Below, one piece after another: positions 2,854 through 23,269 of a stretch of DNA of 64,000 nt. The notes under the pieces were generated by a model. That model ran no database searches and was not told the origin of the DNA. It was given only the letters and a program-made list of their open reading frames with translations. Position 1 is the stretch's first letter, and every line of letters starts with the position of its first letter. The DNA lies in the NCBI GenBank assembly GCA_965208105.1, contig OZ242318.1:2528001-2592000 (forward strand). Direction: 5' to 3'. A program made the position numbers and the translations under genes. Origin of the DNA: Candidatus Latescibacterota bacterium (GTDB taxonomy: Bacteria > Latescibacterota > UBA2968 > UBA8231).

Positions 2854-3011
2854 TCAGATAATTTCGTGGTGTGTAACCCAGTACTCGATGAAGGCGAGGT
2901 CGGCATCGAGGCTGCCGTCGATGACCCAGTTCCGGCCCCAGTCCTCTACCTGCGCTTCCATGCCCAACCGCCACAGGAGCCGCACCGGCACGAAGAGCTC
3001 AACGGCTCGCA
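2854..3011 (-). pseudogene. 3' fragment of an unknown gene (…LRAVELFVPVRLLWRLG…EYWVTHHEII*) cut at an oriIS
   Basis: Coding-like frame ends 6 bp before the next start and runs upstream into the oriIS at 3016. Confidence 0.55.
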
Positions 3012-3015
3012 GAAG

Positions 3016-3089
3016 TATAGGAAGAATAAACACCGTTATCGGTAGTCGCGGCAAGCCAGCGGGTATGTGATCCTGTCCACCAGGCATTT
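3016..3089 (-). mobile_element. oriIS fragment of a second IS91/ISCR-like element
   Basis: Minus strand ends GTTTATTCTTCCTATA|CTTC, resembling the ISCR oriIS TTCCTATAC core; interior differs from the main repeat. Confidence 0.6.
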
Positions 3090-3093
3090 GAAG

Positions 3094-3272
3094 TATAGGT
3101 AAAATGAGGCACCTTTTTGGCCCTCTTGTCAAGGCGCCGAACACACCCAAGGGGCACAGGGTAAGCTTGCTGATGGTCGATACCAGCGGCCCACCACGCG
3201 CAGAAACACCGCCAGTACCTTCGAGACCCACTCGCCGTCGTAGGCGAGGCGGTAACGAATCGAGAGGGAGAG
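3094..3272 (-). mobile_element. IS91/ISCR remnant copy 1: 82-bp oriIS end fused to an N-terminal transposase fragment
   Basis: 3094-3175 matches the repeat; 3176-3272 minus encodes LSLSIRYRLAYDGEWVSKVLAVFLRVVGRWYR, overlapping the copy-6 transposase text LRVVGRWYRRQA. Confidence 0.8.
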
Positions 3273-3273
3273 G

Positions 3274-5703
3274 TTAGGGTACCCGCTTGCCGGTGCGCAG
3301 AAAGGTGATGTAGCGGCGCCGGTACTCCGCTTTGTAATCCGCGACGGCCTGCTCGTAACTCAACTGAGGTGCGTCGGCGATCGTGGCACCAACCAGTACC
3401 AGTTCGCGGGCCGCCAGTGGGAATAAGACGTGGCCGTCCTGCACGCGAATCTCGCTGCCGTCCAACTCGGCACGCTGCACATCGAAGAACCACGGTACCC
3501 GCACCCGCACCTGCTTCGGCGCCCAACGATATGCCGCGGGCAGGCGGATAATGATACGGTCGTTGTAGCGCTTCACCGTGAAGCTGAGCGGCCCGAACGA
3601 GGTGGGGGCATCACGGACCTCGAGGGGATTGTCCGGCTGCAGCCACTCGGGCGACAGGGCGGAGAGCAGGACGAGGTCCTCGCCCTGTTCGCGCACCAGC
3701 ATGTTGCGAATCAGCTCGATGGTCTTTGCCCCGGTAAGCCCCTGAGGTAGAAGATTGTGGGCGTGGTTCACCTCGCGGGTGCTCCACGGTATGGTGCCAA
3801 ACTCGCCCGGTAGATGGGTCGAGGTCGTGTGCAACAGCAGGGCATACAGAATGCGCACCGCTTCTTCCTGGTCAGCCAGGTGTCCCCGCACCAGCAGAGT
3901 TTGCGCATTGTTGGGCGACTGCCAGTAGTGGATGCCGGGTTGTTCGTTGTAGCGGATCTCATCGCCCTCCTCCGCGATCGCCATTGGCCAGGTGTAGGCG
4001 AGCAGACCTTCCTGGTAGCGTGCACGGGTGGTGTTCAGGGTAGCGTCGACGCGCGGGTCCTCCGGATCAAACAGTACCTCGGGGTACAGCGTCAGCAAGT
4101 TGTCCCAGTCGTTACCCGCCGTGGTGCGATCAAGTGCCGGCGGGATGTAACCACCGGTCAGCGCCGTCTGCTTCTCCAGCAGCCGCTCGAACGCCGCACG
4201 GAAGCGCTGCGCCTGCGCCTCGAAACGAGCCGCCTCGTCGGACCTGCCCATCTCCCGGGCCATGAAAACGGCGTGCCGCAGACCGATAAGGGCCCAAAAG
4301 TGCTGGCCCGTCTGGCGGCAATCCTTGAGGTAGGCATCGTCGGAAATCGTGGTCGTTGGAAAGACCCCAAACTCGTCGGCAGCGGTGATACGCTCGTGCC
4401 ACGCCACAGCTCTCAGCACCCCGGGATAGACGGTCTCGAGAAAGGTTCGGTCGCGGGTGAGCTGGTAGTGGCGACCCCAGTTCCACAGGTTCCAACCGAA
4501 CAGCTCCCAGTACCGCGGTTCCTCCTCGTCGTCGAACATGGGAAAAACTCCGTCAGGACGTTGCCTGGAGAGGAAGTACAGGAGCGCTTGCCGCGAGTCG
4601 TCGAGCAGTCCCATCAGTTCAAACGCGTGGACCATGGTGCCGGTGTCGCAGCCGCCGTACCAGTGGTGATACTGGAACTTGTTGACGTTGACGACCGTGT
4701 CATCGCCGATCTGATCGATGGCCAGCAGGTTCGAAACGGTGTTGGCCAGCAGATACTCCTGCACCTTCGCCTCGGGGAAACTGAACGGAGCGACCGCCGC
4801 GACCTTACCCTCCCAGAACGCCATCGTCTCCCGGAAGAGGGCATCGATGTCGGCGCCCCGGACCTGGCTGGCCGCGGACGAGTCGCCGGGTAGTGGCGTC
4901 AGCGGCAACCTGAAATCCAGCGACCTGCTCTGACCGGCCCCCAGCGGCAGGCAATAGATCGTCACCCCGAGCGGCGCGTGGGCGTCGAAGTGGTATTGCC
5001 GTTCCGACCCCGCCACACCAGGGCCGCGCTCGCCCTCGACCTCACCGGAGAAAAACCGCACCATGCGGACAGCCGCATCCCCCAGCGCCATGGTTCGTTT
5101 GGGCGCCGGGTCGGTCGGGAAGACGTATAACATGCGGTCGTCGCGCAGCAGCGCGTCGCTGCACCATGCGTAAGTCCAGGACGGGTCATAGTCCGTTTGT
5201 CCCTCGACCAGCTCTCGCTGGAGATGCTCCGTTTTTTGTCGAAAGCGGTAATCGGGCACGCCCCGGCTGTAGATCGTGTTTGCCGGTGCGCTGAATCGCC
5301 AGGCGGCGCTCACGTGCGGCGTGCGCGGTTCCGAAGTCAGCGTGTTCGTCACCGTGACACGCAGGAAGCTGACTGGCATTCCCCGCAGATCCCCGCCAAG
5401 GTCAGCGGCAAAACACTGGAAGAAGTACCTGACTCCGTCCCGATCGAGATCGTACTCGATCACGGGCAGGTAGCCGCGGTTACGGGTGCGGATGCGGGCT
5501 TCGACCGGCTCGGGCGGATTCCCGGTAAAGACCATCAATTCGCCGAACCCTGTGTAGAGATATCCTTCCGGGGTAACCTCCACCGCCACCGGCGCCCCCC
5601 AGGCACCCAAAACATCGTTCGGGTGTGCGAAGTACGAGAAGGGCTTGTCCGGAGGATCCATCCGTTCGGGATCCACCATGCCCAACGATTCGGTATTTAT
5701 CAT
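3274..5703 (-). CDS. Large six-hairpin (alpha/alpha)6 glycosidase-like protein, 809 aa
   Basis: KFQYHHWY, RQRPDG, HYQLTRDRTFLETVYP, C-terminal APTSFGPLSF, typical of GH15/GH63/GH116-like folds. Confidence 0.65.
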   Translation of the reverse strand: MINTESLGMVDPERMDPPDKPFSYFAHPNDVLGAWGAPVAVEVTPEGYLYTGFGELMVFTGNPPEPVEARIRTRNRGYLPVIEYDLDRDGVRYFFQCFAADLGGDLRGMPVSFLRVTVTNTLTSEPRTPHVSAAWRFSAPANTIYSRGVPDYRFRQKTEHLQRELVEGQTDYDPSWTYAWCSDALLRDDRMLYVFPTDPAPKRTMALGDAAVRMVRFFSGEVEGERGPGVAGSERQYHFDAHAPLGVTIYCLPLGAGQSRSLDFRLPLTPLPGDSSAASQVRGADIDALFRETMAFWEGKVAAVAPFSFPEAKVQEYLLANTVSNLLAIDQIGDDTVVNVNKFQYHHWYGGCDTGTMVHAFELMGLLDDSRQALLYFLSRQRPDGVFPMFDDEEEPRYWELFGWNLWNWGRHYQLTRDRTFLETVYPGVLRAVAWHERITAADEFGVFPTTTISDDAYLKDCRQTGQHFWALIGLRHAVFMAREMGRSDEAARFEAQAQRFRAAFERLLEKQTALTGGYIPPALDRTTAGNDWDNLLTLYPEVLFDPEDPRVDATLNTTRARYQEGLLAYTWPMAIAEEGDEIRYNEQPGIHYWQSPNNAQTLLVRGHLADQEEAVRILYALLLHTTSTHLPGEFGTIPWSTREVNHAHNLLPQGLTGAKTIELIRNMLVREQGEDLVLLSALSPEWLQPDNPLEVRDAPTSFGPLSFTVKRYNDRIIIRLPAAYRWAPKQVRVRVPWFFDVQRAELDGSEIRVQDGHVLFPLAARELVLVGATIADAPQLSYEQAVADYKAEYRRRYITFLRTGKRVP

Positions 5704-5721
5704 GGGTTGATCCCCTGCGAA

Positions 5722-6528
5722 TCAGGCGGGCGACCGGATCGCTTTGACGATCTCCTTGGTGTTGGTGATGTGGGTTATTGCCATCAACTCCAAGGTTTCC
5801 GGGGATAGACTCGCTCGGGTCTCTTCCGACAGGTCGACAACATCGATGCCGTAGTGCTGCGGATAGTACCGCAGGGCCAGGGTGCAACGATCCCGCTCGG
5901 CCGGCTTCCAGGGCAGGGTGCCGTGAGTGAGCAACTCGGAGATGATGACGAAATCACCGGCGCGCGGGGTAAGATTCACTACGCCGGGAGGGATGTCTGC
6001 CGTGATTTTATTGCCGCCATAAAACAGGTCGCGGGGACGTTCGAACTGTGATTTGTGGGAGCCGGGAACGACAATAAGGCCGCCGTCGCCGGGGAAAACG
6101 TCCGTGAGGTACGGGAAGACCACCAGATTGTCGCAGAAGATGCGGCCGTCTTCGATTGTATAGCGCGTGCCCGGCCCCTCCCAATCTTCGCGGGCGCAGT
6201 GCAGGTTGGTGCCCTCGTTTTTTCTGTCGACGAGCAATGTGCCGCTGCCGAAACGCGGCTTGTCGTGGGTGAGATCGCAAATGATGGGCAAAGTAACCGG
6301 ATGTCTGGTCAGGATTTCGAGAGCCTCGTCGAAGGCAAAGCCGTTGTCGTAGCCGTAAAACCCCGGCTCCAGCTCACGACAACCAAAGTCATGAGGCAGC
6401 TGCTCGGGCGGGGTGCTGACATAGCGCTTGACCGCCTCCTGTGCCCGGCGCAGTTCCTCGTCGCTGAGGGCGTTTTCGAGATGCAGGTAGCCGGTCACGT
6501 CGAAGAGATAGCGCTGTTCGGGCGTCAT
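5722..6528 (-). CDS. PhyH-family Fe(II)/2OG oxygenase, HCA variant
   Basis: MTPEQRYLFDVTGYLHL, GDGGLIVVPGSHK, ELLTHGTLPW; start taken at ATG 6528 after an AAAGGA RBS. Confidence 0.85.
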   Translation of the reverse strand: MTPEQRYLFDVTGYLHLENALSDEELRRAQEAVKRYVSTPPEQLPHDFGCRELEPGFYGYDNGFAFDEALEILTRHPVTLPIICDLTHDKPRFGSGTLLVDRKNEGTNLHCAREDWEGPGTRYTIEDGRIFCDNLVVFPYLTDVFPGDGGLIVVPGSHKSQFERPRDLFYGGNKITADIPPGVVNLTPRAGDFVIISELLTHGTLPWKPAERDRCTLALRYYPQHYGIDVVDLSEETRASLSPETLELMAITHITNTKEIVKAIRSPA

Positions 6529-6620
6529 TGCGGGTCCTTTCGTTGTTGGCCGCCGCGAGCTCGTTCGGTTACTCAAAACCGCGACGCGGTGTGATCATCG
6601 AGGGTCCAGAAGCCCCGGAG

Positions 6621-6770
6621 CTACAGAAAAATCGGATTCGACCACGCATATCCGTCTTCGCCGTCCCAGATCTCGCCGCGGAAATAGCACCCTGCCGGCA
6701 TCGGGTTGCTGATGAAGCCTAGTTCCCGCATTCCCGCGATCAGGGCCTCGGTCCGCGCCGGCGTCGCCAA
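6621..6770 (-). pseudogene. 3' fragment, possibly PHP/CehA-McbA-like metallohydrolase (…YFRGEIWDGEDGYAWSNPIFL*)
   Basis: Manual translation gives an AWSNPIF C-terminus; truncated upstream at oriIS copy 2. Confidence 0.55.
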
Positions 6771-6771
6771 G

Positions 6772-7043
6772 TATAGGTAAAATGAGGCACCTTTTTGGCC
6801 CTCTTGTCAATGCGCCGAACACACCCAAGGGGCACAGGGTAAGCTTGCTGATGATCGTTTGCAGGTCGTTGGGCAGGGCTCGCAGTACGGTTTGGTTGTC
6901 TGTGGGCCCGTATCGGGTCCAATCCGGTACTCGATGAGGCCATTCAGGACGCACTTCTCCCTACGGCTCTCGGCGCAGGGAGCGAATCGCGGATGAGATC
7001 AGGCGGCGAACTCGAACTGCGGCTGCGGCGGGGCCCTCGGCGG
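6772..7043 (-). mobile_element. IS91/ISCR remnant copy 2 (227-bp oriIS module + about 45 bp transposase tail)
   Basis: Near-identical to copies 3-5; flanked by CAAG on plus; tail PPRAPPQPQFEFAA*. Confidence 0.9.
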
Positions 7044-7107
7044 CGAATATCTTGACCATCGGGGTGATGAGGCCGTACATTCCGTAGGCGCAGATCTTTG
7101 TTGGCAT
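7044..7107 (-). pseudogene. 5' stub of an unknown gene (MPTKICAYGMYGLITPMVKIF)
   Basis: AGGAGAGGGG RBS plus ATG; frame runs into the transposase tail. Confidence 0.4.
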
Positions 7108-7424
7108 CCGTGATCCCCTCTCCTATCAGTTCAAACGCAGACCCAGAGAACCGTCTGACCCCTGTTGCGACCAATCTACGCGGCCGGGATCGGCCAGGGC
7201 AGCGGCTGCGGATTCCACGCCTGCGCTTTCAATGCCATAGAAAGCTTGGCGATTTCCGGCATCGGCGCCAGTGAGCGCGAGAATCCCGCTGCGAGGTAGC
7301 AGCGATGTCGGGGTTTTGGCACTTTTGAGTGTTCAACCGGGGCCGGCGACGGGTTGACGGCGCAGCGACTCGAACTGCAGGATGAACCTGCCAGACAGAA
7401 AGCCGTTGCCGAGCAGGATTGCGA

Positions 7425-8222
7425 ATGAACGAAAAAGAGCGGTTTCTGTTCGACCTGCGGGGTTACGTGGTCGTGGAGGATGCGCTCGCTCCTTCCGATT
7501 TGATCGCTGCCAATGCCGCGGTCGACCACCACCTCCATTTGATCCGGAAGCGGGAACCCGGACTCGCCCAGGGCGGGGAAAACCTGGTGGCGGCGACCGG
7601 TAGGGGGGAATTCCGACAGGATCCGCTGACGTTCGAACGTCCCTGGTGCGAACCGTTCCGGGAGATGCTGACTCATCCGGCGATCGTCGACATCTTCAAC
7701 GAACTTCTGGGCCCGGGATTCCGTCTGGATCACGGTCCCGGTCTCATCCAGATGGACAATACCACCGAAGGCCACCGGCTGCACGGCGGCATGACCTTCG
7801 ATCCCAGCCAGTACCATGGTTTCAGTCATGGCAGAATGCACTGCGGGCTCTGTGTCGCCGCCTGGCAGTTGACCGATGTGGAGCCCGGGGATGGCGGGTT
7901 CGCCTGTATTCCGGGCAGCCACAAGGCCAATTACAAACCGCCGCTGGAGGTGCTGAAACTCGACCAGGACTGGGGCTGCGTCGAGCAGGTGGCGGCGCCC
8001 GCCGGGGCACTGGTCATCTTCAACGAGGCCCTGGTTCACGGCACGCTGCCGTGGAGACCGCCCGATCGCCTGCGTCGCTCGGTCCTGTTCAAGTATTCCC
8101 CAGGGTTCATCTCCTGGGGCGCCCCACACCAACAATGCCCGATCGCCGATGCGACCCCCGAGGAAGCCGCACTCTACGAGCCGCCGCGGCGAACCGACCG
8201 CCCCGAACTGGGGGGAGCTTGA
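7425..8222 (+). CDS. PhyH-family Fe(II)/2OG oxygenase, HGG variant
   Basis: ERFLFDLRGYVVV, RLHGG, GDGGFACIPGSHK, EALVHGTLPW. Confidence 0.85.
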   Translation: MNEKERFLFDLRGYVVVEDALAPSDLIAANAAVDHHLHLIRKREPGLAQGGENLVAATGRGEFRQDPLTFERPWCEPFREMLTHPAIVDIFNELLGPGFRLDHGPGLIQMDNTTEGHRLHGGMTFDPSQYHGFSHGRMHCGLCVAAWQLTDVEPGDGGFACIPGSHKANYKPPLEVLKLDQDWGCVEQVAAPAGALVIFNEALVHGTLPWRPPDRLRRSVLFKYSPGFISWGAPHQQCPIADATPEEAALYEPPRRTDRPELGGA

Positions 8223-8351
8223 GGCGCCGCCTCGTCTGGCGTACTCGACCGACAACCGGAGCTTGCCGGGTGGTTGCTTTTTTGGTTAGGTATGGCCCGC
8301 CTCGACGTCACCTTCATCGCCACCAGAGCCCCCGCGGAGAAGACCGGAATC

Positions 8352-9674
8352 ATGCCTCAACCCAACATCCTTTTCATCCTTGCGGACGACTTGGGATGGG
8401 CTGATTTGGGAATGCATGGCGCTCCCGTATCGACCCCCAACATCGACCTGCTTGCCAAAGAGGGCGTGGAATTGATGGCCCACTACGTCTGCCCCATGTG
8501 CACGCCGACGCGGGCGTCGCTGCTGACCGGACGTCACCCCAGTCGTTTTGGACCCAACCCCACTTCGCCAACAAACCTACCGGTGCTGCCGGACGGGTAC
8601 GAAACCCTGGCGACACTGCTGCGAGACGCCGGCTACGATACCGGGTTGTTCGGCAAGTGGCATCTCGGCTCCAGCCCCCAGTTCGGACCCAACCACTACG
8701 GGTTCAACAGATCGTATGGCTCGCTGGCCGGCGGCGTGGATCCATTCAACCACTTCTACAAGGAAGGCGAGTATTCGACCACCTGGCACCGCAACGGCGA
8801 GCTTCTGGAAGAGCGCGGTCACGTTACTGACCTGATCGTGCGCGAAGCCCGCGAGTGGATCGAGAGCCGCGAGCAACCGTGGTTTTGCTACGTTCCGTTC
8901 ACCGCGGTGCACGTACCGATCAAACCCACCTCCGAATGGTACGCGCGATATGCCGGGGAGCAATTCGATGAGGACCCGCTGCGCGACCTCTCCTACAAGA
9001 AATACGCCGCCTATACCAGCCACATGGACCATGGGGTCGGTCTGTTGCTCGACAGCCTGGAGATCACCTGCCAACGCCAGGACACTATCGTCGTGTTCGC
9101 CTCCGACAACGGCGCTATAAACGATTGCCCGCTCCACGGAACGGACAAATATCCCGGCTGGCAGGTCGACTACCCGCGACTGGGTTCGAACCTGCCCTTT
9201 CGCGGTGTGAAGGCGCAACTCTACGAGGGCGGAATCCGCACTCCAACCATCGTCAACTGGCAGGGCAAGCTCGATCCTGGCGTGCGCGACCGACCGGTGC
9301 AGGTGGTGGATTGGATGCCGACGTTCATGGCTATGCTGAACCTGCAACCCCAGCGCGAACACCAGTTTGACGGCGTCGACATATGGCCGCTGATCTCTGC
9401 CAACAAGCCGGGGCCCGCACGCAATCTCTTCTGGAATTTCCGCGGTGATCGGGCATTGGGTTTGAGACACGGCGATTGGAAGCTGATCGACACTGCCGCG
9501 GAGAACGGTCGTGTGCGGGAGTTGTTCAACATCGCCGAGGATCCCGGGGAAGAAAAAGATCTGGCCTCAGAAAGGGCTGACCTGGTTGCGGAGCTGAGCG
9601 AATTGATCGAACAGGAACGCCGGCTGGACGGCAGCGAAGCGCGACCCGACGTGACCGACTACGAGGATATGTAG
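8352..9674 (+). CDS. Arylsulfatase (S1 family)
   Basis: PNILFILADDLGW, CTPTRASLLTGR (CxPxR), GKWHLG, SDNG, YEGGIR. Confidence 0.92.
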   Translation: MPQPNILFILADDLGWADLGMHGAPVSTPNIDLLAKEGVELMAHYVCPMCTPTRASLLTGRHPSRFGPNPTSPTNLPVLPDGYETLATLLRDAGYDTGLFGKWHLGSSPQFGPNHYGFNRSYGSLAGGVDPFNHFYKEGEYSTTWHRNGELLEERGHVTDLIVREAREWIESREQPWFCYVPFTAVHVPIKPTSEWYARYAGEQFDEDPLRDLSYKKYAAYTSHMDHGVGLLLDSLEITCQRQDTIVVFASDNGAINDCPLHGTDKYPGWQVDYPRLGSNLPFRGVKAQLYEGGIRTPTIVNWQGKLDPGVRDRPVQVVDWMPTFMAMLNLQPQREHQFDGVDIWPLISANKPGPARNLFWNFRGDRALGLRHGDWKLIDTAAENGRVRELFNIAEDPGEEKDLASERADLVAELSELIEQERRLDGSEARPDVTDYEDM

Positions 9675-9717
9675 AGGCGCCGGGGCTTCTTGCCGTTCCC
9701 GTTTGTCCTGTCCACGG

Positions 9718-10116: not shown

Positions 10117-10132
10117 ACTCGGACCCTGCCTG

Positions 10133-10933: not shown

Positions 10934-10943
10934 GGTCTCCTGC

Positions 10944-15124: not shown

Positions 15125-15164
15125 GGCGATGTCCTGGGAGCGAGGGCGCTGGGGCCGGGAGAAG

Positions 15165-15740: not shown

Positions 15741-17246
15741 TCAGACAAACTGAATGGTGTACAGGCAGACGCTGCGCATGTCCAGACGCAGGCGCACCGG
15801 CTCACCCTGCAGGCGCGACAGGTCCGCCCCTTCCCAGGACACCTCGTTAACCCCGCTCTCCAGAACGGTGGTTGAATTCTCGAAGGTGAAGCCCTCGATC
15901 GGGGCCCCCGACTGGTCTGCCAGGGCCGCGCGCACCTCGCACTCGTCGAAATTCCTCACCTCCCTGGGAAGCGCTTCCCCTATCGCCGCATCCACATCGA
16001 TGAGCAGCTTCGAACCCTCGAAGGTCAAGGGATGGGTGGTGATCCGCGCCTGCTTCGGTCCGGCCAGCAGGCCGGCCCAGCGGTCCTCGGGCAGGGTGGC
16101 CAGGGCGATGTTCGTCTCGCAGGTATCGCTGAGCCGCGTCGGGTTTTCGGCATGGGCGCCGCTGTATCCGGTGTAGTAGATCCAGATCTGGCCGTCCTGC
16201 ACGATCGGTCCCGACGGCAGCAGGTATCCCGCGTCGTAGGTGCCGATCTCGCCGCGCCCGAGGAAGGGCACGTGGCGGTCGACCCAGTTCCAGTGGAAGC
16301 CGTCGCGGCTGCTCATCAGGAACACGTCCCACACCTGGTCGTGGGTCTTGTGGATCATCAGGAAGCCGACGTAGAACTCGCCGCAGAACCCGGCCGTGAA
16401 GTACTGGTACTGGTGATCGACCCGGTCGCCGTCGTCAGGCGCCAGCATGATCCGCGTCGGCGTCCAGTGCTCGAAGTCGTCGCTCTCGGCGTAGCCCACG
16501 GTGCGGATGTGGCGATGGTGGCCGCTGCCGTCGATCTCGTGGGTGAGTGGGTGGCCGGGGCGGAAGTAGCCGACATACTTCTGCTTCTTCGGATCCCAGC
16601 CCAGCACGGTGGAGGCGTCGGCCACGTCGGTGGGGTACTGCACCACCGCCTGGTTGTTGTAAGTCCAGTGCAGGCCGTCGGGGGAATAGGCGTTCACCAT
16701 ACCGCCGGGGGGCTGATGGCCGCCCGGACCGTGCATCTCGCCCTGCGCCTTGTAGCGGCGCTGCGGGTCCGGATCGCGGGGATCCTTGAAGACGTTGTAG
16801 TAGTTGGGTTCACCCGCGTCGCCGCCCCGGCGGAGCATGTCGACGATATTGTTCTGCCTCGAGTCTTCGAACTCGATCAACCCCAGATCGGGCTTTTGCC
16901 AGTAGAAGCCGTCGGTCGACGTGGCGTAGCACCAGGGCCGGCGGCCATCGGGGAGGGCGGATGGCAGGTACCACATCTTGAAGAGGTTCTCTTCTTCGTC
17001 GTAGAGGACCGTCTGACCTACGAGCTGCACATCTCCAGTCTTGCCGCGGCCTCTGCCCTCCTCCCAGGGCCGGTCTGCCACCATGATGGGATTGCCGGCG
17101 TGCTTGTTGGGCCGGAACATGTAGTGGGAGATGCGGCTGGCTTCGTCGATGAGCAGGTCGTCGAGGAAATGCTGCTTGCGCTTGCCGATGTCGACGATGC
17201 CGGCTGCCGGGGTGGAGGCGGGTTCTATCATGGATCCGGTTTTCAT
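15741..17246 (-). CDS. Five-bladed beta-propeller glycoside hydrolase-like protein
   Basis: QHFLDD, FKMWY, YATSTDGFYWQKPDLG, YSPDGLHW, SSRDGFHW; paralogue of 1366-2847. Confidence 0.7.
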   Translation of the reverse strand: MKTGSMIEPASTPAAGIVDIGKRKQHFLDDLLIDEASRISHYMFRPNKHAGNPIMVADRPWEEGRGRGKTGDVQLVGQTVLYDEEENLFKMWYLPSALPDGRRPWCYATSTDGFYWQKPDLGLIEFEDSRQNNIVDMLRRGGDAGEPNYYNVFKDPRDPDPQRRYKAQGEMHGPGGHQPPGGMVNAYSPDGLHWTYNNQAVVQYPTDVADASTVLGWDPKKQKYVGYFRPGHPLTHEIDGSGHHRHIRTVGYAESDDFEHWTPTRIMLAPDDGDRVDHQYQYFTAGFCGEFYVGFLMIHKTHDQVWDVFLMSSRDGFHWNWVDRHVPFLGRGEIGTYDAGYLLPSGPIVQDGQIWIYYTGYSGAHAENPTRLSDTCETNIALATLPEDRWAGLLAGPKQARITTHPLTFEGSKLLIDVDAAIGEALPREVRNFDECEVRAALADQSGAPIEGFTFENSTTVLESGVNEVSWEGADLSRLQGEPVRLRLDMRSVCLYTIQFV

Positions 17247-17374
17247 TGGATTGGCTCCTCTGCGTGATGCCCCCTATGGCATGGACCGAAGAAGGGACGT
17301 TGTCTGTTGTCTGGGTCGTGCCGGCGCCAGCCGAAGACGCGGCCAGCCGGCGGGTGCGCAAACGGGCAATGTTC

Positions 17375-18112
17375 CTAACGGTCGAATGACTCCAACTGGT
17401 CAGGTACTAGTCGACAATGATCTCCCAGGCGCTCCCGGATGTCCTCACCCAGGGAGCCTGCGATTTCATACTGCGGCCGCGTATTCGGGCAGCTGAACCC
17501 GAGGTGAATCGCCCGTCTGGGCGACGAAGAAAAGTTCGCCCGTCCACCGTGCCAGACGTCTCCATGCAGTATGATCGCGGATCCCGCGGGACAGGTGGCA
17601 TATATCTCTCCAGGAATATCCGCCTTGGGATCTGAGACCACGTCTCGCGGCCAGGGGCCTTTGTGCGAGCCAGGAACGAGACGAGTTGCTCCGTTTTCCT
17701 TCGTCATCTCATCGATGGCCCAGACGACATTCAGATAGCCCGTGCAATTGGGGAAAAACGATCGATCGGCATGAATGGCCTGATGAGGACGGGGATCGCC
17801 CGGTATGGGATCGTGGAAATTCATCGCTTGCCAACGCACATCGCTCCCAATCTCTACTTGGGCGGATTCCAGCGCGAGTGGATCGGTGGCCAATTCCGCC
17901 AGCGAATCACCCTTGCCAATGAGGTTGCACAATCGCCGAACACCAGGCTGACTTGATCCTTCCGAGCCCGCCAGGTCACCCTCAAAGACGTACCTGTTCT
18001 CCAGCTCCTCTCGCAGTGCTTCCAGCCGTCCTTCTGTCAGCCAGCATTCCACGATCAGGTAGCCGTGCTCCAGGTAAAACTCCCATTGATGTGAGGATAT
18101 CATCTCATCCAT
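17375..18112 (-). CDS. PhyH-family dioxygenase (HAD motif)
   Basis: HGYLIVE, IHADRS, NGATRLVPGSH, VWHGG; start uncertain. Confidence 0.8.
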   Translation of the reverse strand: MDEMISSHQWEFYLEHGYLIVECWLTEGRLEALREELENRYVFEGDLAGSEGSSQPGVRRLCNLIGKGDSLAELATDPLALESAQVEIGSDVRWQAMNFHDPIPGDPRPHQAIHADRSFFPNCTGYLNVVWAIDEMTKENGATRLVPGSHKGPWPRDVVSDPKADIPGEIYATCPAGSAIILHGDVWHGGRANFSSSPRRAIHLGFSCPNTRPQYEIAGSLGEDIRERLGDHCRLVPDQLESFDR

Positions 18113-18196
18113 GTGCCTGGACTTCAGCCAATCCGGCGACTCGGGAAACGCGTCGAGGCGGAGCGGTGCTGGCAAATCCTCATCTTGAATGGATTC

Positions 18197-18687
18197 CTAA
18201 AGCAGGCTGTCCAATACTTCCGCATAGAGCATTTCTGCTCGAACGACGCATTTTTCAGGGAGTGGACCGGTCGTGCCACCACATTTTTCGCGTAATCTGG
18301 TAAAACCTTCTATCTCATAAGCCGCGGGTCGAAAGTTGTGTTCTGGTGGTACCGGTTGCCAGAATGCTTTCATCATGCGACTAGCAATTCGCGTATTTTC
18401 TTCGTCATCGAGGTACAGGCCCAGTGGCAGACCAGGACGGGCACGTTCGAGCATGAGCGTGCCCGATTCTTCATCGTAGTCGAGTAATTGAACGGCGCTA
18501 TTTCCATCACAAAGTTGCAGCGCATGGCATTCATTTTGTTCATTCTCCAATCTTTGAACGGGCGAGTTAATTTTGAGAATTACTTCCTGGCCGTCGGCGC
18601 GCCTTGCAGGTGCAATGTAGCTATAAGACATTTCGACATGTTCTTCGGTCATAGGTGCTTCCATGCGAAGTTCCCAGCGTTTCGAAG
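18197..18687 (-). pseudogene. Internal fragment of an aminoglycoside/hydroxyurea resistance kinase (APH(6)-like)
   Basis: MSYSYIAPARRADGQEVILK…LMLERARPG; lacks both the N-terminus and the catalytic HGD region. Confidence 0.7.
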
Positions 18688-19204
18688 TATAGGTAAAATG
18701 AGGCACCTTTTTGGCCCTCTTGTCAATGCGCCGAACACACCCAAGGGGCACAGGGTAAGCTTGCTGATGATCGTTTGCAGATCGTTTTACAGGGCTCGCA
18801 GTAGGGTTGGATAGCCTGTGGGCCCGTAGCGGGTCCAATCCCGTACTCGATGAGGCCCTTCAGGACGCACTTCTCCCTACGGCTCTCGGCGCAGGGAGCG
18901 AATCGCGGATGAGATCAGGCGGCGAACTCGAACTGCGGCTGCGGCGGGGGCCTCGGCGGCAGCCCTACCCCCTCCAGATAGGTCCGGATCGGTCAGGGCG
19001 GCGACGATCCTCAGGCGCCCGCCACAGGTCGCGCCTGCGCTGAGGTCGGAGGAAAACACCCGCGCCAGCAGGGCCGCCCACCCCAGGCGATGGGTGCAGG
19101 ACGGAGCGCTCGTATCGCCGTCCGCCGCCGGCTCGGCAACCGGCTTGGCCGGCACGATGCGGCCGCGGTCGCGGGCACGGGGGGCCAGGACCCCGTGGTA
19201 GCGC
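18688..19204 (-). mobile_element. IS91/ISCR remnant copy 5 (227-bp module + about 290 bp tail with two micro-deletions)
   Basis: RYHGVLAP…GWAALLARVF; 12-bp and 11-bp deletions relative to copy 6; diverged segment 18781-18842. Confidence 0.9.
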
Positions 19205-20117
19205 GGGCACTGGCATCTGCTCCGGCGAAGGGGGCATGTTACCCGAAGAGCAGGCGGAGAACAGTCGTTACTTTTATGAACTCGCCTCTGCATGCTTCGG
19301 CTATTCGTGGGATAAGCTGCATCTGGTTCAGGCGTTCCACTTCAAGGGTGGGCAGGGTGCGAAGACAGGCACCGGCGGCCACCTTCCCGGTGCAAAGGTG
19401 CAAGAAAAGATTGCTGAGGTTCGTGGTCTCGTTGCAGGGCAGCCGGCGATTTCTCCTGCACGCTTCCCAGACTGGCACACCTTGGACGACTTCAAAAACT
19501 TTGCCGAAGAAGTCCGCAAGGAAACCGATGGCATCCCGATTGGCTTTAAGTTATCTGCGCAACATATTGAGGAGGATATCGAAGCCGCAATCCAAATTGG
19601 GGCGGATTATATCATTCTTGACGGTCGGGGCGGCGCCACCGGTGCAGCACCGCTCATCTTTCGTGATAACATTTCGGTCCCAACGATGCCAGCGATTGCA
19701 CGAGCGAGGAAGTACCTTGATGAAACAGGCAATGGTGATATAACCCTGATCGCGACGGGCGGATTAAGATTGCCAGCGGACTTTGCTAAGGCACTCGCGC
19801 TTGGCGCAGATGGTGTTGCCATTGCGAACTCAGCGCTGCAAGCAATTGGCTGCGTGGGTATGCGTGCCTGCCATACGAACAGTTGCCCGGTCGGAATTGC
19901 CACGCAAAAAGAGTATCTCCGTGCCCGGCTCATTGTTCATCAAGCCGCCCGGCGGCTCGACCGATTCCTCGGAGCAGCGGTTGAATTGATGCAGGTAATG
20001 GCGCGTGCCTGTGGGCATACCCACCTGAATCAATTTTGCATTGGTGATCTCACAACGTGGAAGCGGGAGATTGCATATCTGACCGGGGTTAAGTACGCTG
20101 GGGTTGTTCCTCTATAA
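19205..20117 (+). pseudogene. 3' part of an FMN-binding glutamate synthase family gene
   Basis: Begins mid-protein at GTGICSGEGGML; KGGQGAKTGTGGHLP, DGRGGATGAAP, CVGMRACHTNSCPVG. Confidence 0.8.
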
Positions 20118-20183
20118 GGAAGTGCTAGGGCGTGTTGATATTTATGTAACACGTGCCCATAATTCGCCAATAAGTATCCAATC

Positions 20184-20368
20184 GTAGGGGCGAGGTTTCC
20201 TCGCCCAATCTCGATTTCATTGAGGATTCTCGCCTTGCGGAACAGGTTGGGCAACCCAACCCCTACGGGAATTGACCTAATGTAGGGGCAACCCTTGTGG
20301 TTGCCCAAAATACTACTTTATCAACAAAACCTAGGTAAACGTAGAAAACGCAGATCTGCGTTCCCTAT
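20184..20368. repeat. Cluster of GTAG-type REP-like palindromes
   Basis: GTAGGGGCGAGGTTTCCTCGCCC (20184), inverted GTAGGGGTTGGGTTGCCCAACC (20266-20245), GTAGGGGCAACCCTTGTGGTTGCCC (20282), degenerate GTAG..AACGCAGATCTGCGTT (20341). Confidence 0.75.
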
Positions 20369-20395
20369 AAGGTAAAAGTTGAATAGGAGGCAACT

Positions 20396-21154
20396 ATGCC
20401 CGACGAATTGATGACCACCTTTGAAAAACTCTGGGTTGCCCTGCGCGCTGCGTGGTGCGACAATCACGACCTCAATGGCGCATTGGCTTTCAGCCATGAC
20501 CGCGCAGCGATGGACTTCTTTCATCGCATTGTGCAGGTGAGCGTGGACGACGCCCAAGTAGACAGGATGATTGACGATGCGATTCGCCTGTTTCAAGAGC
20601 AAAAATACGATTGCATGTTCACCCTTTCGCCGCTAGACCGTCCCACTGATCTTGGCGAGCGGTTGGAGAGGCGCGGTTTCACAGAGGGTATGTTGGCATC
20701 GGCGATGGTCTATGATCCGCCCACGACACCGCCCCCTGTCCAAACTGTCGCAGAAATCGATGTCTCACCCGATGCGGAATATGACCTTTGGGCGGAGGTC
20801 ATGTGTCGTGGATTCGGTCATGACCAAACGATGGGAGAGGTCGGACGCGATGTGCTGATCGTGCCCGAAGTGCGCCGCTATCTAGCGCGTGTGGACGGTG
20901 CGGCGGCGGGCACAACGCTGGTCTACTCACAATTCGGTATGGGCTACGTTGATCATGTCGCAACACTACCAGAACATCGCCGCAAAGGGATTGCCTCTGC
21001 CATGGTTGCACGAGCGGTTGCGGATTCACAGGCGATGGGCAACCGCTGGACGACGCTGGAGACGACAACGGGCAGCAACGCCGAGCAGATATACCAGCGA
21101 CAAGGCTTCCGCATTGCCTATCATCGAAGGCGCTACATCATGCCTCATGGGTAA
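20396..21154 (+). CDS. GNAT family N-acetyltransferase
   Basis: VATLPEHRRKGIA motif A, IYQRQGF; AGGAGG RBS. Confidence 0.85.
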   Translation: MPDELMTTFEKLWVALRAAWCDNHDLNGALAFSHDRAAMDFFHRIVQVSVDDAQVDRMIDDAIRLFQEQKYDCMFTLSPLDRPTDLGERLERRGFTEGMLASAMVYDPPTTPPPVQTVAEIDVSPDAEYDLWAEVMCRGFGHDQTMGEVGRDVLIVPEVRRYLARVDGAAAGTTLVYSQFGMGYVDHVATLPEHRRKGIASAMVARAVADSQAMGNRWTTLETTTGSNAEQIYQRQGFRIAYHRRRYIMPHG

Positions 21155-21222
21155 GGGTAAGGTAGAATCCTTAGCAAAGAAGGTCTATCAAGCAATATTT
21201 CGACAAAAAAGGAGTTCATAAC

Positions 21223-21919
21223 ATGGCACTGCAAGCGTGGATACGCATCGGTCAACCCCTTGAGCCGGTGATGGACGATTACGAACGGATCTTTGATGCT
21301 TGGGAAGCCGGTGGAATCAAAGGCTTTGTTTTTGGTCGCACACTTTTTGCGGATACGCAGGGTCAATTTACTATTCCCGCTTTCCCTTCCAACCCGCAAG
21401 CCTATCGCAATCGCGGGTTAGAACCGAATGTCCGAGACACAGAAACCGATTCCGCCAAAGAGAGAATGCTCCATGCGATGCTTGATAACGCCAAGTCACG
21501 CGGTTGGGAGATTTTCATTTTTGCCCCCGGCAGCGGGGCAACGGGTGCGAAATCACTTCCACTAAAGGAAGATCCCTACGGTGCAGTTGCTATGGCAGCA
21601 GTTTGGGATGAGACATTCGGCAGCTTCCCACAAGTCGATGGTGGTATCATGGATGGTTGGACAGAGTCCGCTTATGAACTGGTATGGCATCACGGCAATG
21701 CCGTATTTGCGGATATACCTGAATCGACCAAAGCCCAAGCTGCTGTCAGAGGGTACGATCCAGATAGGCTTGAACGCGGCAGGCGACATCTCCATGAGCG
21801 TTTTCGTAGTTTAACCCCCGCTGAAGTCCGCTATTATGGCACCTACGGCGTACTGTCGGAGATGAATCTCTTTGATATCAACGAGGCTGCAGTTTACTGG
21901 CTGCGTTGGCGACGGGAGG
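21223..21919 (+). pseudogene. 5' part of a hypothetical protein truncated by copy 6
   Basis: AGGAG RBS; the stop codon is supplied by the IS repeat. Confidence 0.6.
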
Positions 21920-22653
21920 GATGAGGCCCTTCAGGACGCACTTCTCCCTACGGCTCTCGGCGCAGGGAGCGAATCGCGGATGAGATCAGGCGGCGAACTC
22001 GAACTGCGGCTGCGGCGGGGCCCTCGGCGGAGGCACCGCCGGCAGCCCTACCCCCTCCAGATAGGTCCGGATCGAGGCCGGATCGGTCAGGGCGGCGACG
22101 ATCCTCAGGCGCCCGCCACAGGTCGCGCATGCGCTGAGGTCGGAGGAAAACACCCGCGCCAGCAGGGCCGCCCACCCCAGGCGGTGGGTGCAGGGCGGAG
22201 CGCTCGTATCGCCGTCCGCCGCCGGCTCGGCAACCGGCTTGGCCGGCACGATGCGGCCGCGGTCGCGGGCACGGGGGGCCAGGACCCCGTGGTAGCGCAG
22301 GAGATGGAGCCGGGGCGGGGGGACCAGAGCCGCCAGCACGGGCTCCTCGGCGGCGAGCGGATCGGCTTGAGTGTCGTCGAGCAGGCCGTGTCGGCTACAC
22401 AGGCGGATGATGCGGCGCGCACTCGTCTCCACGATCTGCCGCACCGCTTGGTCCGACAACGGCGGGGCCGCTACGAAAACCGGAGCTTCATCCCCATCGG
22501 CGTAGACCCCGTCGAGCATGAGCACGTGTACGTGGGGATTGAGGTTCAACGAGGAACCGAATCTTTGGACGAAGGTTACCGAGCCCCAACGTGCGCGGTC
22601 ATGACCCATGGCCTGCGCCTGACGTCGATACCAGCGACCCACCACGCGGAGAA
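21920..22653 (-). mobile_element. IS91/ISCR remnant copy 6: longest transposase remnant, internally deleted, oriIS missing
   Basis: QRFGSSLNLNPHVHVLMLDGVY (HUH motif) jumps at LAAL directly to VPPPRLHLLRYHGVLAP; only the last 66 bp of the 227-bp module are present. Confidence 0.9.
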
Positions 22654-22728
22654 TAAACCGAACTGGACAATTCAAGCACCACCGGGAATTAGGTCAAAAC
22701 TTCGGGGGATAAATCAAGTAAATCCCAG

Positions 22729-22946
22729 CTACAACTTTTCCCAATCTGACCGACTGACCTCGGCCTGCTGCAAAATCTTGTTCAAAAGACCACGCCCAAC
22801 GTCACCACGATGTGGGTTGGGCAAGACCAGACGTATTGTTTCTCGGATCATATAGTGATGATTGCCCCAGGATACGGGCCTTCAAATCCCAATTGCTTCA
22901 AGTATCGAATTAGGTCGCGGCGACTGATCGGCCCAAATTTGGGCAT
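22729..22946 (-). pseudogene. hicA: HicA toxin, frameshifted
   Basis: MPKFGPISRRDLIRYLKQLGFEGPYP / GNHHYMIR…LPNPHRGDVGRGLLNKILQQAEVSRSDWEKL*; one G short in the G-run near 22865. Confidence 0.75.
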
Positions 22947-23188
22947 CACACAGGCTCCGATACGCGATCCAGGCGCAACCCATCCACCTCCGGAAGCCGG
23001 TGGTCCATTCTCAATCCGAGGATGATCCAGCCCTCAAGCACGGATTGCAATTCTTCCCTGCACTTTTCCAATGTATCCGCATTTGCATACACGCCTTGAA
23101 ATCCTGCGATTTCTCCATAGAACGATTGATCTTCGAGGATCTCGTATCTCGCGTGCTTCATAGCCGCTTGGATATATGCGGTCAACAT
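22946..23188 (-). CDS. hicB: HicB-family antitoxin
   Basis: MLTAYIQAAMKHARYEILED…GVYANADTLEKCREEL; TGATG overlap with hicA. Confidence 0.85.
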   Translation of the reverse strand: MLTAYIQAAMKHARYEILEDQSFYGEIAGFQGVYANADTLEKCREELQSVLEGWIILGLRMDHRLPEVDGLRLDRVSEPV

Positions 23189-23269
23189 ATAATGCTCACT
23201 TTCATTTGATTTGCACTATAGCCTCTCGCGCGGGAGTGATTCGCCCCACCTCGAACACCAACAGCGCAA

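What the first reader, a model, noticed from the sequence alone, without database searches (positions are those of the whole stretch)
2854..23200. Serial gene-capture array built from non-autonomous IS91/ISCR oriIS ends (Helitron-like cassette array)
Seen in sequence: six same-orientation copies of one element start at 3094, 6772, 12157, 15165, 18688 and 21920 (3.0-5.4 kb apart). Copies 2-5 keep an invariant 227-bp non-coding module from the transposase stop codon to a sharp end. The transposase side is cut at a different point in each copy (C-terminal tail of about 0, 45, 190, 68, 290 and 670 bp). Each interval holds unrelated cargo: intact genes plus trimmed neighbours. Established knowledge: IS91/ISCR HUH transposases initiate at oriIS, often miss terIS and mobilise adjacent DNA, and ISCR1 builds resistance arrays this way. 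Inference: this is an integron-like acquisition platform for catabolic rather than resistance genes, with no integrase or attC sites. It would be driven in trans by a transposase encoded elsewhere, through one-ended transposition or circle re-integration via the shared 227-bp homology.
Basis: partly seen in the sequence, partly recalled or inferred. Interest (0 to 1): 0.92.

Follow-up and report, generated by a model that had tools for sequence, protein, structure and literature searches.

The report
Stacked rolling-circle transposon origin ends
A sponge-associated bacterium carries long chromosomal stacks of gene blocks, each headed by the starting end of the same broken ISCR-like jumping gene, which suggests this kind of element can build large, fast-changing gene islands outside the clinic.

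Summary
Five copies share a sharp end (TATAGG..., preceded by NAAG) followed by a 224-nt non-coding module and a transposase tail cut at a different point in each. The sixth lacks that end.

The transposase is IS91-family, ISCR-like (Pfam Y2_Tnp). A full-length relative is 39% identical to a plasmid ISCR-type enzyme.

The window holds only the right third of a 62-kb array of 15 same-strand remnants. A second 80-kb array lies elsewhere, and this genome has no intact transposase.

Related Latescibacterota genomes carry the same arrays. In a same-genus genome 17 of 17 remnants keep the origin end and 2 keep the terminator end. Across five genomes, origin-end matches number at least 110 against 20 terminator-end matches.

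The window's 18.7 kb of cargo is missing from that relative, where one intact element lies between the same flanks. Other array segments are 97-99% identical between the two genomes, against an 80-87% background.

Best reading: ISCR-type one-ended rolling-circle capture stacked into multi-origin composites and reshuffled by recombination between modules.

The integron-like cassette reading and trans-mobilisation here are not shown. I rate it a new variant of a known kind.

The parts
3090..3261 (-). Copy 1. GAAG tetranucleotide, then origin-end positions 1-84 fused to internal transposase positions 1202-1287 with a 4-nt overlap at the joint.
   Evidence: The left flank and the first 84 nt are 99.35% identical to the flank and origin end of the intact element in the same-genus genome G001.
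3262..6767 (.). Cargo block 1. An 809-aa ORF at 3274-5703 (-) with no Pfam hit, a PhyH dioxygenase at 5722-6576 (-), and a short trimmed ORF at 6595-6768 (-).
   Evidence: Not found in G001-G005 above paralog level.
6768..7043 (-). Copy 2. CAAG, then origin end and module, positions 1-269 (45 nt of transposase 3' end).
7044..12152 (.). Cargo block 2. A 359-aa ORF (7176-8255, -), a sulfatase (8274-9674, +), a partial short-chain dehydrogenase (9526-10116, -), two PhyH genes (10133-10933 and 10944-11831, -), and a + strand ORF from 11870 that is cut by copy 3.
12153..12575 (-). Copy 3. GAAG, then positions 1-415.
12576..15160 (.). Cargo block 3. One 842-aa gene (12596-15124, -) with DUF4838, CBM_4_9 and FlgD_ig domains. 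Its ATG lies 36-40 nt from the next sharp end.
15161..15455 (-). Copy 4. GAAG, then positions 1-289.
15456..18683 (.). Cargo block 4. A 501-aa ORF (15741-17246, -) of an uncharacterised family, a PhyH gene (17375-18175, -), and a partial APH_6_hur-like kinase gene (18197-18667, -).
   Evidence: Deletion variants inside the kinase fragment occur in two other runs.
18684..19207 (-). Copy 5. GAAG, then positions 1-543. It is the most diverged of the five end-bearing copies.
19208..21919 (.). Cargo block 5. An N-terminally cut Glu_synthase-domain gene (19236-20117, +), an AT-rich spacer with small palindromic repeats (about 20175-20310), a GNAT acetyltransferase (20396-21154, +), and a 233-aa ORF (21223-21924, +) that runs into copy 6.
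21920..22660 (-). Copy 6. Positions 160-579 plus 904-1231. It has no sharp end, and its open 235-aa frame is a transposase fragment with an in-frame deletion of about residues 253-363.
22848..23215 (-). A HicB-like antitoxin ORF (UPF0150, 22946-23215) and a short HicA-like N-terminal fragment. They lie where the transposase N-terminus and the terminator end would be.
   Evidence: The HicA likeness is recalled and has no Pfam hit.
23270..24121 (-). PhyH gene. This is the right chromosomal flank of the array and is collinear with G001 from here to at least window 31982, at 84-89% identity.

Best explanation
The stretch is the right-hand third of a 62-kb chromosomal stack. The stack was built by an ISCR-like member of the IS91 family of rolling-circle (HUH) insertion sequences, in a sponge-associated Latescibacterota genome.

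Proposed steps, all inferred unless marked:
1. The element copies itself starting at its origin end (oriIS, downstream of the transposase gene, next to an NAAG tetranucleotide). It sometimes reads through its terminator end (terIS) and so carries neighbouring DNA along. One such read-through copy is seen in the relative.
2. New copies or circles land beside resident copies, or recombine with them, always in the same orientation.
3. Microhomology deletions remove the terminator end and the N-terminal part of the transposase in the inner copies. Several origin ends then share one downstream terminator, giving a multi-origin 'sandwich' composite of the kind proposed for ISCR28. This step would explain why origin ends survive and terminator ends do not.
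4. Recombination between the near-identical modules then adds, removes and exchanges multi-kb blocks, also between species.

In this genome every transposase copy is broken and no terminator end is left, so the array is now a fossil that can change only by recombination or with an incoming element.
For: Family:
- Y2_Tnp is present in the window fragment.
- The full-length relative P0001 has Zn_Tnp_IS91 plus Y2_Tnp.
- P0001's best NCBIfam model is ISCR_clade_Ia.
- P0001 is 39% identical over 493 columns to a plasmid IS91-family enzyme lying between floR and erm(42). The zinc-finger, HUH and LERLCRY motifs are conserved.

Ends:
- The sharp end is preceded by NAAG in 16 of 18 type-A ends of this genome.
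- No terminal inverted repeat and no target duplication appear around the intact copy.

Asymmetry:
- 12 of 15 remnants here and 17 of 17 in G001's array keep position 1 of the origin end. 0 of 15 and 2 of 17 keep the terminator end.
- Equal 120-nt queries in five genomes give 20 terminator-end matches against at least 110 origin-end matches.

Orientation: all 15 remnants of array 1 lie on one strand, and all 17 matches of array 2 on the other.

Read-through: G001's intact copy carries 530 bp beyond its terminator end. Of this, 418 bp is a 98.6% copy of the PhyH gene end that flanks the array's terminal copy 43 kb away.

Deletions: internal joints overlap by 4-12 nt, and two remnants share one joint (153|619). 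Two tails are shorter here than in G001's copy of the same unit.

Turnover and exchange:
- The window's 18.7 kb of cargo has no counterpart in G001. There, one intact element lies between the same left flank and a copy of the PhyH end.
- Shared array segments are 97-99.35% identical, against 80-87% for syntenic chromosome.
- The differences between the two arrays are multi-kb blocks bounded by modules.

Young modules: the 120-nt ends are 95-100% alike within and between the two genomes.

Minimal form: a relative carries origin end plus 543-nt tail, 2.5 kb of cargo, then a full element, with the two modules 99.4% alike.

Reality: contigs from 4 runs of 4 studies cover each cargo block.
Against: - No transposition step was observed. 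The order of events is inferred from end states.
- The one read-through copy does not end at an NAAG on the transferred strand; the shared sequence stops after ...GGCTTC. It could therefore be a segmental duplication.
- Terminator ends also occur inside G001's third array, so 'one terminator per stack' is not strict.
- Inner origin ends are not needed for a composite to move, so their retention needs the extra assumption that they are young.
- Array 2 is more decayed: about 10 of 18 remnants have a recognisable end.
- Gene-sized cargo pieces occur at 96-97% identity in another genus in a 12-kb stretch with no module. Some cargo exchange therefore needs no IS91 end.
- Both MAGs have high estimated contamination (8% and 12%). 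I cannot exclude that some of the 99% sharing comes from cross-assembly.
Confidence: 0.55

Rival explanations
1. True cassette system. Every NAAG^TATAGG junction would act both as origin and as terminator. The transposase would cut out any origin-to-origin unit as a single-strand circle and put it back at another such junction, giving an integron-like platform that runs on HUH chemistry.
For: - Units are bounded on one side by an exact junction.
- The origin end is retained in 29 of 32 remnants of the two arrays.
- Two end subtypes with the same TATAGG start both form arrays.
- Unit content differs between close relatives.
- IS91 moves through single-strand circles (PMC13181058, abstract and passages).
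Against: - Self-comparison of the three arrays found almost no duplicated cargo, and no unit was seen in two different neighbourhoods.
- The tail-cargo joints are irregular and look like ordinary deletions.
- Module-bounded differences are explained equally well by homologous recombination.
- Short-read contigs cannot tell a circle junction from the array junction.
Confidence: 0.15
2. IS graveyard. Many independent insertions of the element went into a tolerant, horizontally acquired region, followed by ordinary deletion decay. The 'cargo' would simply be whatever lay between the insertions.
For: - Remnants are riddled with microhomology deletions.
- No transposase is intact here.
- Tails have shortened since the split from G001.
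- GC content does not jump at each copy.
Against: - Random decay should leave terminator-end pieces about as often as origin-end pieces. The observed counts are 2 of 32 against 29 of 32 in two arrays, and 20 against at least 110 matches in five genomes.
- All copies of an array share one strand, and the strand does not follow the replichore.
- No module separates two halves of one gene in the window.
- The modules are 95-100% alike, so they are young.
- The blocks are not syntenic in the same-genus genome.
Confidence: 0.15
3. The origin-end modules are kept because the host uses them, for instance as outward promoters for the gene that follows, as reported for ISCR1. The asymmetry would then reflect selection, not mechanism. 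This can hold together with the best explanation.
For: - In a crude ORF map, the first ORF beyond the sharp end runs away from it on the transposase strand in 25 of 29 cases.
- Two window genes start 17-40 nt from the end.
- A TTGACA hexamer is conserved in both end subtypes (read by eye).
- ISCR1 has outward promoters (PMC6218425, abstract in a search listing only).
Against: - The consensus scan found no sigma-70-like promoter in the module on either strand.
- The background strand bias of the arrays is already 2:1.
- No RNA data were available.
Confidence: 0.2
4. Assembly artefact. A metagenome assembler joined unrelated contigs at a repeat.
For: - The genome is a MAG with 8% estimated contamination.
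- The repeats are 270-520 bp long.
Against: - The same architecture, with different cargo, appears in at least five independent assemblies.
- The copies differ in tail length and in SNPs, so they are not one collapsed repeat.
- In 4 runs of 4 studies, contigs cover each cargo block and run 25-30 nt into the module at both ends. Cargo depth is even within each run, for example 27-34 in X1.
Confidence: 0.03

Closest known systems
ISCR elements (ISCR1, ISCR2, ISCR28) of the IS91 family
   Same: - The transposase is of the same clade: best NCBIfam model ISCR_clade_Ia, and 39% identity with shared zinc-finger, HUH and single-RY motifs.
- The origin end lies downstream of the gene, with no inverted repeats.
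- Cargo lies beyond the origin end and is mostly co-oriented.
- Truncated copies that keep the origin end flank the cargo. This matches the 'sandwich' of two sequential oriIS described for ISCR28 in PMC12772301 (passages read; the original paper, Yuan et al. 2024, not seen) and the incomplete ISCR2 copies beside floR and tet(X4) in PMC11239352 (passages read).
   Different: - Scale and setting: 15-17 stacked remnants over 62-70 kb, several arrays per genome, on chromosomes of uncultured sponge-associated Latescibacterota.
- The cargo consists of enzymes, not resistance genes.
- Two end subtypes occur, with NAAG and NATG flanks.
- The scores fall below NCBIfam's cut-offs (354 against 925 bits), so this is a distant relative and not a named ISCR.
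IS91, IS801 and IS1294 one-ended transposition
   Same: - The two ends are functionally distinct.
- A tetranucleotide lies next to oriIS (CTTG, GTTC or GTCC in the family; CTTN here when read on the transposase strand).
- There is no target duplication.
- Terminator read-through at 1-14% mobilises adjacent DNA (PMC13181058, passages read).
- One such read-through copy is seen in G001.
   Different: - The match to the IS91 equivalog model is weak (104 against 125 bits).
- There is no orf121.
- The experimental systems give single insertions, not stacks.
Integron cassette arrays
   Same: Both are same-orientation series of short gene units separated by a recurring sequence, with content that differs between close relatives.
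   Different: - No integrase was found among the ORFs scanned.
- The recurring sequence is a transposon end with a transposase remnant, not an attC hairpin.
- Units hold one to five genes on both strands, plus gene fragments.
Helitrons (eukaryotic rolling-circle transposons)
   Same: Both use HUH rolling-circle chemistry, have asymmetric ends, capture genes by terminator bypass, and have many non-autonomous copies (PMC4778049, abstract in a search listing only).
   Different: There is no Rep-helicase fusion, and the host is a bacterium. The likeness is one of mechanism, not descent.

Membership tests
IS91 family (ISCR clade) | Transposase with an N-terminal zinc-binding domain and an HUH/Tyr catalytic domain (Pfam Zn_Tnp_IS91 plus Y2_Tnp). 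| tested here: met
   - Window fragment: Y2_Tnp, E = 6e-12.
- Full-length relative P0001: both domains.
- Motifs align with a plasmid IS91-family enzyme.
- In the window itself the gene is only a 235-aa broken piece.
IS91 family (ISCR clade) | Score above the curated family cut-off of NCBIfam. | tested here: not met
   ISCR_clade_Ia scores 354 bits against a cut-off of 925. transpos_IS91 scores 104 against 125. This is a distant relative. The ISCR model is an 'exception'-type model made for near-identical named elements.
IS91 family (ISCR clade) | Two unlike ends without terminal inverted repeats, with the origin end downstream of the gene. | tested here: met
   The end 224 nt past the stop codon is sharp and conserved. 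The other end, about 105 nt upstream of the ATG, is defined by four relatives. The two ends are not inverted repeats of each other, as read.
IS91 family (ISCR clade) | Specific tetranucleotide next to the origin end, and no target-site duplication. | tested here: met
   NAAG precedes 16 of 18 type-A ends (GAAG in 10). NATG precedes the type-B ends. The flanks of the intact copy share no duplication.
IS91 family (ISCR clade) | Rolling-circle transposition that starts at oriIS and ends at terIS. | not testable with these tools
   The only support is indirect: one read-through-like copy and the end asymmetry.
Integron | Tyrosine-recombinase integrase (intI) beside the array. | tested here: not met
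   None of the 27 ORFs scanned against Pfam in window 326-26391 is a recombinase. The rest of the 62-kb array was not scanned.
Integron | attC recombination sites between cassettes. | not tested
   No attC model was run. The recurring sequence between units is the IS91-type module, and Rfam found nothing in window 1-27000.
Multi-oriIS 'sandwich' composite (as proposed for ISCR28) | Cargo enclosed between a remnant that keeps oriIS and a complete element with terIS, all in one orientation. | tested here: inconclusive
   The feature is met in relatives: G003 has its minimal form, and G001 has 8 and 9 origin ends upstream of a terminator end. It is not met in this window or genome, where no terminator end and no complete element remain.

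The most novel reading that the evidence does not exclude
The arrays are a working gene-cassette system that uses rolling-circle (HUH) chemistry instead of an integrase. Each NAAG^TATAGG junction would serve as both start and stop. Any origin-to-origin unit could then be lifted out as a single-strand circle by a transposase supplied from any copy in the community and set down at another junction. This would give sponge-associated Latescibacterota a shared, cross-genus pool of enzyme genes.
Probability: 0.15. Interest if true: 0.85.

Novelty: new variant of a known kind. Interest (0 to 1): 0.64.

Why it matters
ISCR elements are known almost only from clinical plasmids. There, one to three copies sit beside resistance genes, and how they pick up genes on their origin side is still argued.

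Here the same kind of element has left dozens of origin ends per genome, in stacks of 60 kb and more, in an uncultured symbiont lineage. Natural 'before and after' states are available between close relatives.

This offers a large comparative data set for testing the capture models: terminator read-through, two-origin sandwich, and recombination through the common region. It also suggests that rolling-circle elements can build and exchange large accessory gene islands in environmental bacteria.

The strong excess of origin ends over terminator ends is a concrete regularity that any model must explain.

Tried and rejected
- Replichore bias as the cause of the common orientation. The cumulative GC skew peaks near 0.38 Mb and is flat at 2.2-3.0 Mb. 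Copies at 0.79-1.02 Mb and array 2 share a strand although their local skew has opposite sign. Rejected as the sole cause.

- Premature termination at a tetranucleotide as the source of the tails. The tail-cargo joints of copies 2, 3 and 4 do not follow an NAAG. Rejected.

- Nested insertion into resident copies. This would put a new sharp end directly after a tail, which is not seen in 32 remnants.

- Promoter in the module. The consensus scan found none.

- Hairpins at the end. Small stems exist 17-40 nt from the end in both subtypes, but folding energies are no better than shuffles (z = +1.1 to +1.9, and -0.02 for one strand).

- Rfam found no family in window 1-27000.

- Search for an 'empty site' of the partial copy in G003 among 61 genomes of the family. 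None was found.

- Search for the extra unit of this genome (cargo between remnants 3 and 4) in five relatives. It returned one 86% partial match in G002.

- Search for duplicated units within and between arrays. Only a 432-bp piece is repeated.

- Read laying:
  - No listed contig spans two modules.
  - Contigs run 25-30 nt into the modules, which is short of the tool's 31-letter rule for bridging. Unit order is therefore not confirmed by reads.
  - Parts without long pieces say nothing.
  - A joint 22623>3176 in run X1 is most simply a longer transposase copy elsewhere in that sample.

- Literature. Four searches listed no paper on such arrays or on IS91 elements in Latescibacterota. The library lacks most subscription journals. 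Toleman et al. 2006 was not held and Yuan et al. 2024 was not seen. Supplements were not opened.

Full report
**1. The observation**

Five of them start with the same sharp end, TATAGGTAAAATGAGGCACC..., at 3094, 6772, 12157, 15165 and 18688. Each is preceded by GAAG, or by CAAG at 6768.

Copies 2-4 are 98.3-98.9% identical to each other. Copy 5 is about 95% identical to copies 2 and 4.

On the minus strand the copy at 21920-22693 has an open 235-aa frame that matches Pfam Y2_Tnp. The sharp end therefore lies downstream of the transposase stop codon.

**2. A reference element**

A search for longer relatives of the fragment found 476-aa proteins with Zn_Tnp_IS91 plus Y2_Tnp. Their loci come from records titled Candidatus Latescibacterota MAGs.

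The intact copy in locus L001 defines a 1760-bp element. Comparison of four relatives fixes the far end about 105 nt upstream of the ATG. The coordinates below are counted from the origin end, with the stop codon at 225 and the ATG at 1655.

On this scale the window copies cover:

| copy | positions covered |
|---|---|
| 1 | 1-84 + 1202-1287 |
| 2 | 1-269 |
| 3 | 1-415 |
| 4 | 1-289 |
| 5 | 1-543 |
| 6 | 160-579 + 904-1231 |

- Copy 1 is an end fused to an internal transposase piece.
- Copy 6 lacks the end and has an in-frame deletion.
- The internal joints overlap by 4-12 nt, as microhomology deletions do.

**3. The family**

- P0001 scores best against NCBIfam ISCR_clade_Ia (354 bits) and more weakly against transpos_IS91 (104 bits). 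Both scores are below the curated cut-offs.
- It matches IS91-family genes on at least 5000 plasmids at about 40% identity.
- One of these lies between floR and erm(42) on an IncC plasmid. From memory this is the ISCR2 setting.
- The pairwise alignment is 39% identical end to end. The zinc-finger cysteines, the HUH motif (HVH against HYH) and the LERLCRY motif are conserved.
- The ends behave as described for the family in PMC13181058 (abstract and passages read): unlike ends, no target duplication, and a tetranucleotide next to oriIS.
- In this genome 16 of 18 type-A ends are preceded by NAAG, which reads CTTN on the transposase strand. GAAG accounts for 10 of them.
- A second end subtype (type B) starts TATAGGAAAAATAAGGCACCGATATCGG and is preceded by NATG. 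It merges with type A from position 170 onward.

That the sharp end is the origin end is an assignment by position and family analogy. It is not a tested property.

**4. The true extent**

The window lies in a single 4.85-Mb contig. The element's remnants run from 2488480 to 2550653. That is 15 remnants, all on the plus strand, of which the window holds the last six.

- 12 of the 15 keep position 1 of the origin end. One of these starts at position 4.
- Two start inside the element, at positions 114 and 160.
- One is a fragment near the terminator end (1522-1712) that lacks the end itself.

A second array at 4302185-4384709 gives 17 matches, all on the minus strand, and mixes types A and B. 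About 10 of its roughly 18 remnants have a recognisable end.

This genome has no intact transposase:
- The Pfam family search of the whole genome finds six short pieces.
- tblastn with P0001 finds only fragments.
- tblastn with 120 diverse full-length IS91-family proteins gives a longest alignment of 256 aa, which is copy 6.

**5. Relatives**

Five related genomes (G001-G005) all hold the module. G001, G002 and G004 each gave more than 40 matches, clustered in same-strand groups.

In the same-genus genome G001 the array sits at the same chromosomal place. The right flank is collinear from the PhyH gene onward at 84-89% identity. A 1.1-kb left-flank piece is 96% identical.

G001's array has 17 remnants, and all 17 begin at position 1. 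Their extents are 138 to 1760 nt. Only two keep the terminator end: the intact copy and the last copy next to PhyH.

Equal 120-nt queries for the two ends gave these match counts in G000-G004:

| end queried | G000 | G001 | G002 | G003 | G004 | total |
|---|---|---|---|---|---|---|
| terminator end | 1 | 8 | 4 | 1 | 6 | 20 |
| origin end | 21 | at least 40 | 20 | 6 | 23 | at least 110 |

Notes on the counts:
- The one terminator-end match in G000 is partial.
- The origin query sees type A only.

The module also turned up in at least five genera of the family among 61 genomes searched.

**6. Cargo**

Pfam and NCBIfam scans of the long ORFs give:
- four PhyH dioxygenases inside the window part of the array, and a fifth as the right flank;
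- a sulfatase;
- a DUF4838/CBM protein;
- a GNAT acetyltransferase;
- several proteins without family, one of which resembles uncharacterised proteins common in Poribacteria and Planctomycetota (a lead only);
- trimmed genes at the unit borders: a Glu_synthase domain lacking its first third, a partial APH_6_hur-like kinase, a partial short-chain dehydrogenase, and ORFs that run into modules.

No module in the window separates two halves of one gene.

In a crude ORF map, coding is about 2:1 on the transposase strand. The first ORF beyond a sharp end points away from it in 25 of 29 cases.

GC content ranges from 0.53 to 0.66 without a step at each copy.

**7. Is the cargo native?**

The 18.7 kb between copy 1 and copy 6 was searched in G001-G005 and in 40 relatives. 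Apart from the modules, the hits were of two kinds:
- paralog-level matches at 66-79%;
- a few short pieces at 90-96% in other genera (G013, G009).

In G001 the same left flank (99.35% identical through the first 84 nt of the end) is followed by one intact element.

Other array segments are collinear with G001 at 97-99.35% identity. These are own 2488685-2501600 and 2525654-2531179.

By contrast, 15-kb samples of ordinary chromosome are 80-87% identical. Array DNA has therefore been exchanged between the two species far more recently than they split. The alternative is that the assemblies share reads, which I cannot exclude; contamination estimates are 8% and 12%.

The differences between the two arrays are blocks of 4, 24, 19 and 43 kb whose borders fall in modules.

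Pieces of own cargo occur at 91-92% in another G001 array, and at 91-97% in another genus. In G013 two gene-sized pieces lie 2.2 kb apart in a 12-kb stretch that has no module. Their borders sit just outside the genes.

**8. Direct trace of capture**

G001's intact copy is followed, past its terminator end, by 530 bp. Of this, 418 bp repeats the DNA past the terminator end of the array's last copy at 98.6% identity, namely the spacer and the 3' end of PhyH.

There the sequence continues as the full gene. This is what terminator read-through (one-ended transposition) produces.

The shared sequence does not end at an NAAG on the transferred strand, so a plain duplication is not excluded.

A relative (G003) shows the smallest stack: an end with a 543-nt tail, 2.5 kb of cargo, then a full element. 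The two modules are 99.4% alike.

**9. Reads**

The stretch is held by runs labelled sponge or marine metagenome. 17 runs hold half or more of its sampled words, and the 20 holders come from 9 studies.

Contigs of four runs from four studies were laid on 2700-22650:
- Each cargo block is covered by contigs at 99% identity or better.
- The contigs stop 25-30 nt inside the modules, as de Bruijn contigs do at repeats. This is one to six letters short of the tool's 31-letter rule for bridging, so unit order is not confirmed.
- Cargo depth is even within each run.
- Bins that contain a module have two to four times the depth.
- Two runs carry deletions inside the kinase fragment, and one joins the end of cargo 5 deeper into copy 6.

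**10. How it most likely works**

Random decay of independent insertions would leave both ends about equally often, but that is not what is seen (paragraphs 4 and 5). Three simple models fail:
- Premature termination at a tetranucleotide fails because the tails do not end at NAAG.
- Nested insertion fails because no tail is followed directly by a new end.
- A replichore effect fails because strand does not follow GC skew.

The model that fits best is the one proposed for ISCR28. I know it only as described in PMC12772301, where cargo is 'sandwiched' between two sequential origin ends.

A copy that lands on the origin side of a gene can mobilise that gene, together with the element beyond it, only after losing its own terminator end. 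Each layer of a stack therefore records one intact origin end and one deleted terminator end.

G001 fits this. It has eight origin ends upstream of the intact copy's terminator and nine upstream of the last one.

Three observations point to later change by ordinary deletion and by recombination through the modules:
- tails that have shortened since the split;
- a joint shared by two remnants;
- block differences bounded by modules.

The modules' 95-100% identity shows that the stacks are young or homogenised.

Shown: the anatomy, the asymmetry, the turnover, and the high identity of shared segments. Inferred: every mechanistic step.

**11. Comparison and verdict**

This works like an ISCR element and is a distant member of that clade of the IS91 family. 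It is not an integron and not a Helitron.

What is new is the scale and regularity of the stacks, their chromosomal and non-clinical setting, the two end subtypes, and the measured excess of origin ends. Four literature searches listed nothing on this, but the library is incomplete.

I rate it a new variant of a known kind, of fair interest. A cassette-like mode of action is not excluded, at about 15%.

Noticed in passing
G000 contig 4302185-4384709 (outside the window; loci L090-L094): A second 80-kb array of remnants of the same element, all on the minus strand. It mixes the window's end type with a second type (TATAGGAAAAATAAGGCACCGATATCGG..., preceded by NATG). It is more decayed than array 1.
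   Followed up: partly
window 20175-20310: An AT-rich spacer with three small GC-rich palindromes of the form GTAGGGGC...GCCC. In all four runs this bin has 77-647x contig depth, against 5-35x for most cargo bins, and many length variants. It looks like a REP- or MITE-like repeat that is very common in these sponge metagenomes.
   Followed up: no
window 22848-23215: A HicB-like antitoxin ORF (UPF0150, E = 9e-31) and a truncated HicA-like start. They sit between the broken transposase of copy 6 and the PhyH gene, where the relative has the transposase N-terminus and the terminator end.
   Followed up: partly
L096 (G013 6117984-6123412) against G000 2502055-2503554 and 2526266-2527998: Two gene-sized cargo pieces of this genome's array are 96-97% identical to DNA of a different genus. 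There they lie 2.2 kb apart with no IS91-type module in 12 kb. The homology stops within a few tens of bases of the gene ends.
   Followed up: partly
L085 1596-2758 and L089 1-713 (G000 301596-302758 and 2508001-2508713): Another multi-copy element of about 1.16 kb is shared at 92-98% with three or more places in G001, one of them inside G001's third array. It is probably a different insertion sequence.
   Followed up: no
window 18104-18441: Two runs from other studies carry 205-bp and 219-bp deletions inside the partial kinase gene. This pseudogene is decaying differently in different populations.
   Followed up: no
G000 contig 2.2-3.0 Mb: GC skew is flat for about 0.8 Mb around array 1, while the rest of the chromosome shows two clear arms. 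This suggests rearrangement or much foreign DNA near the skew minimum.
   Followed up: no
G001 1733280-1733535 (L080): A third copy of the PhyH 3' end (94% identical to this genome's gene) lies just left of G001's array. The array there is therefore bracketed by repeats of the same gene end.
   Followed up: no
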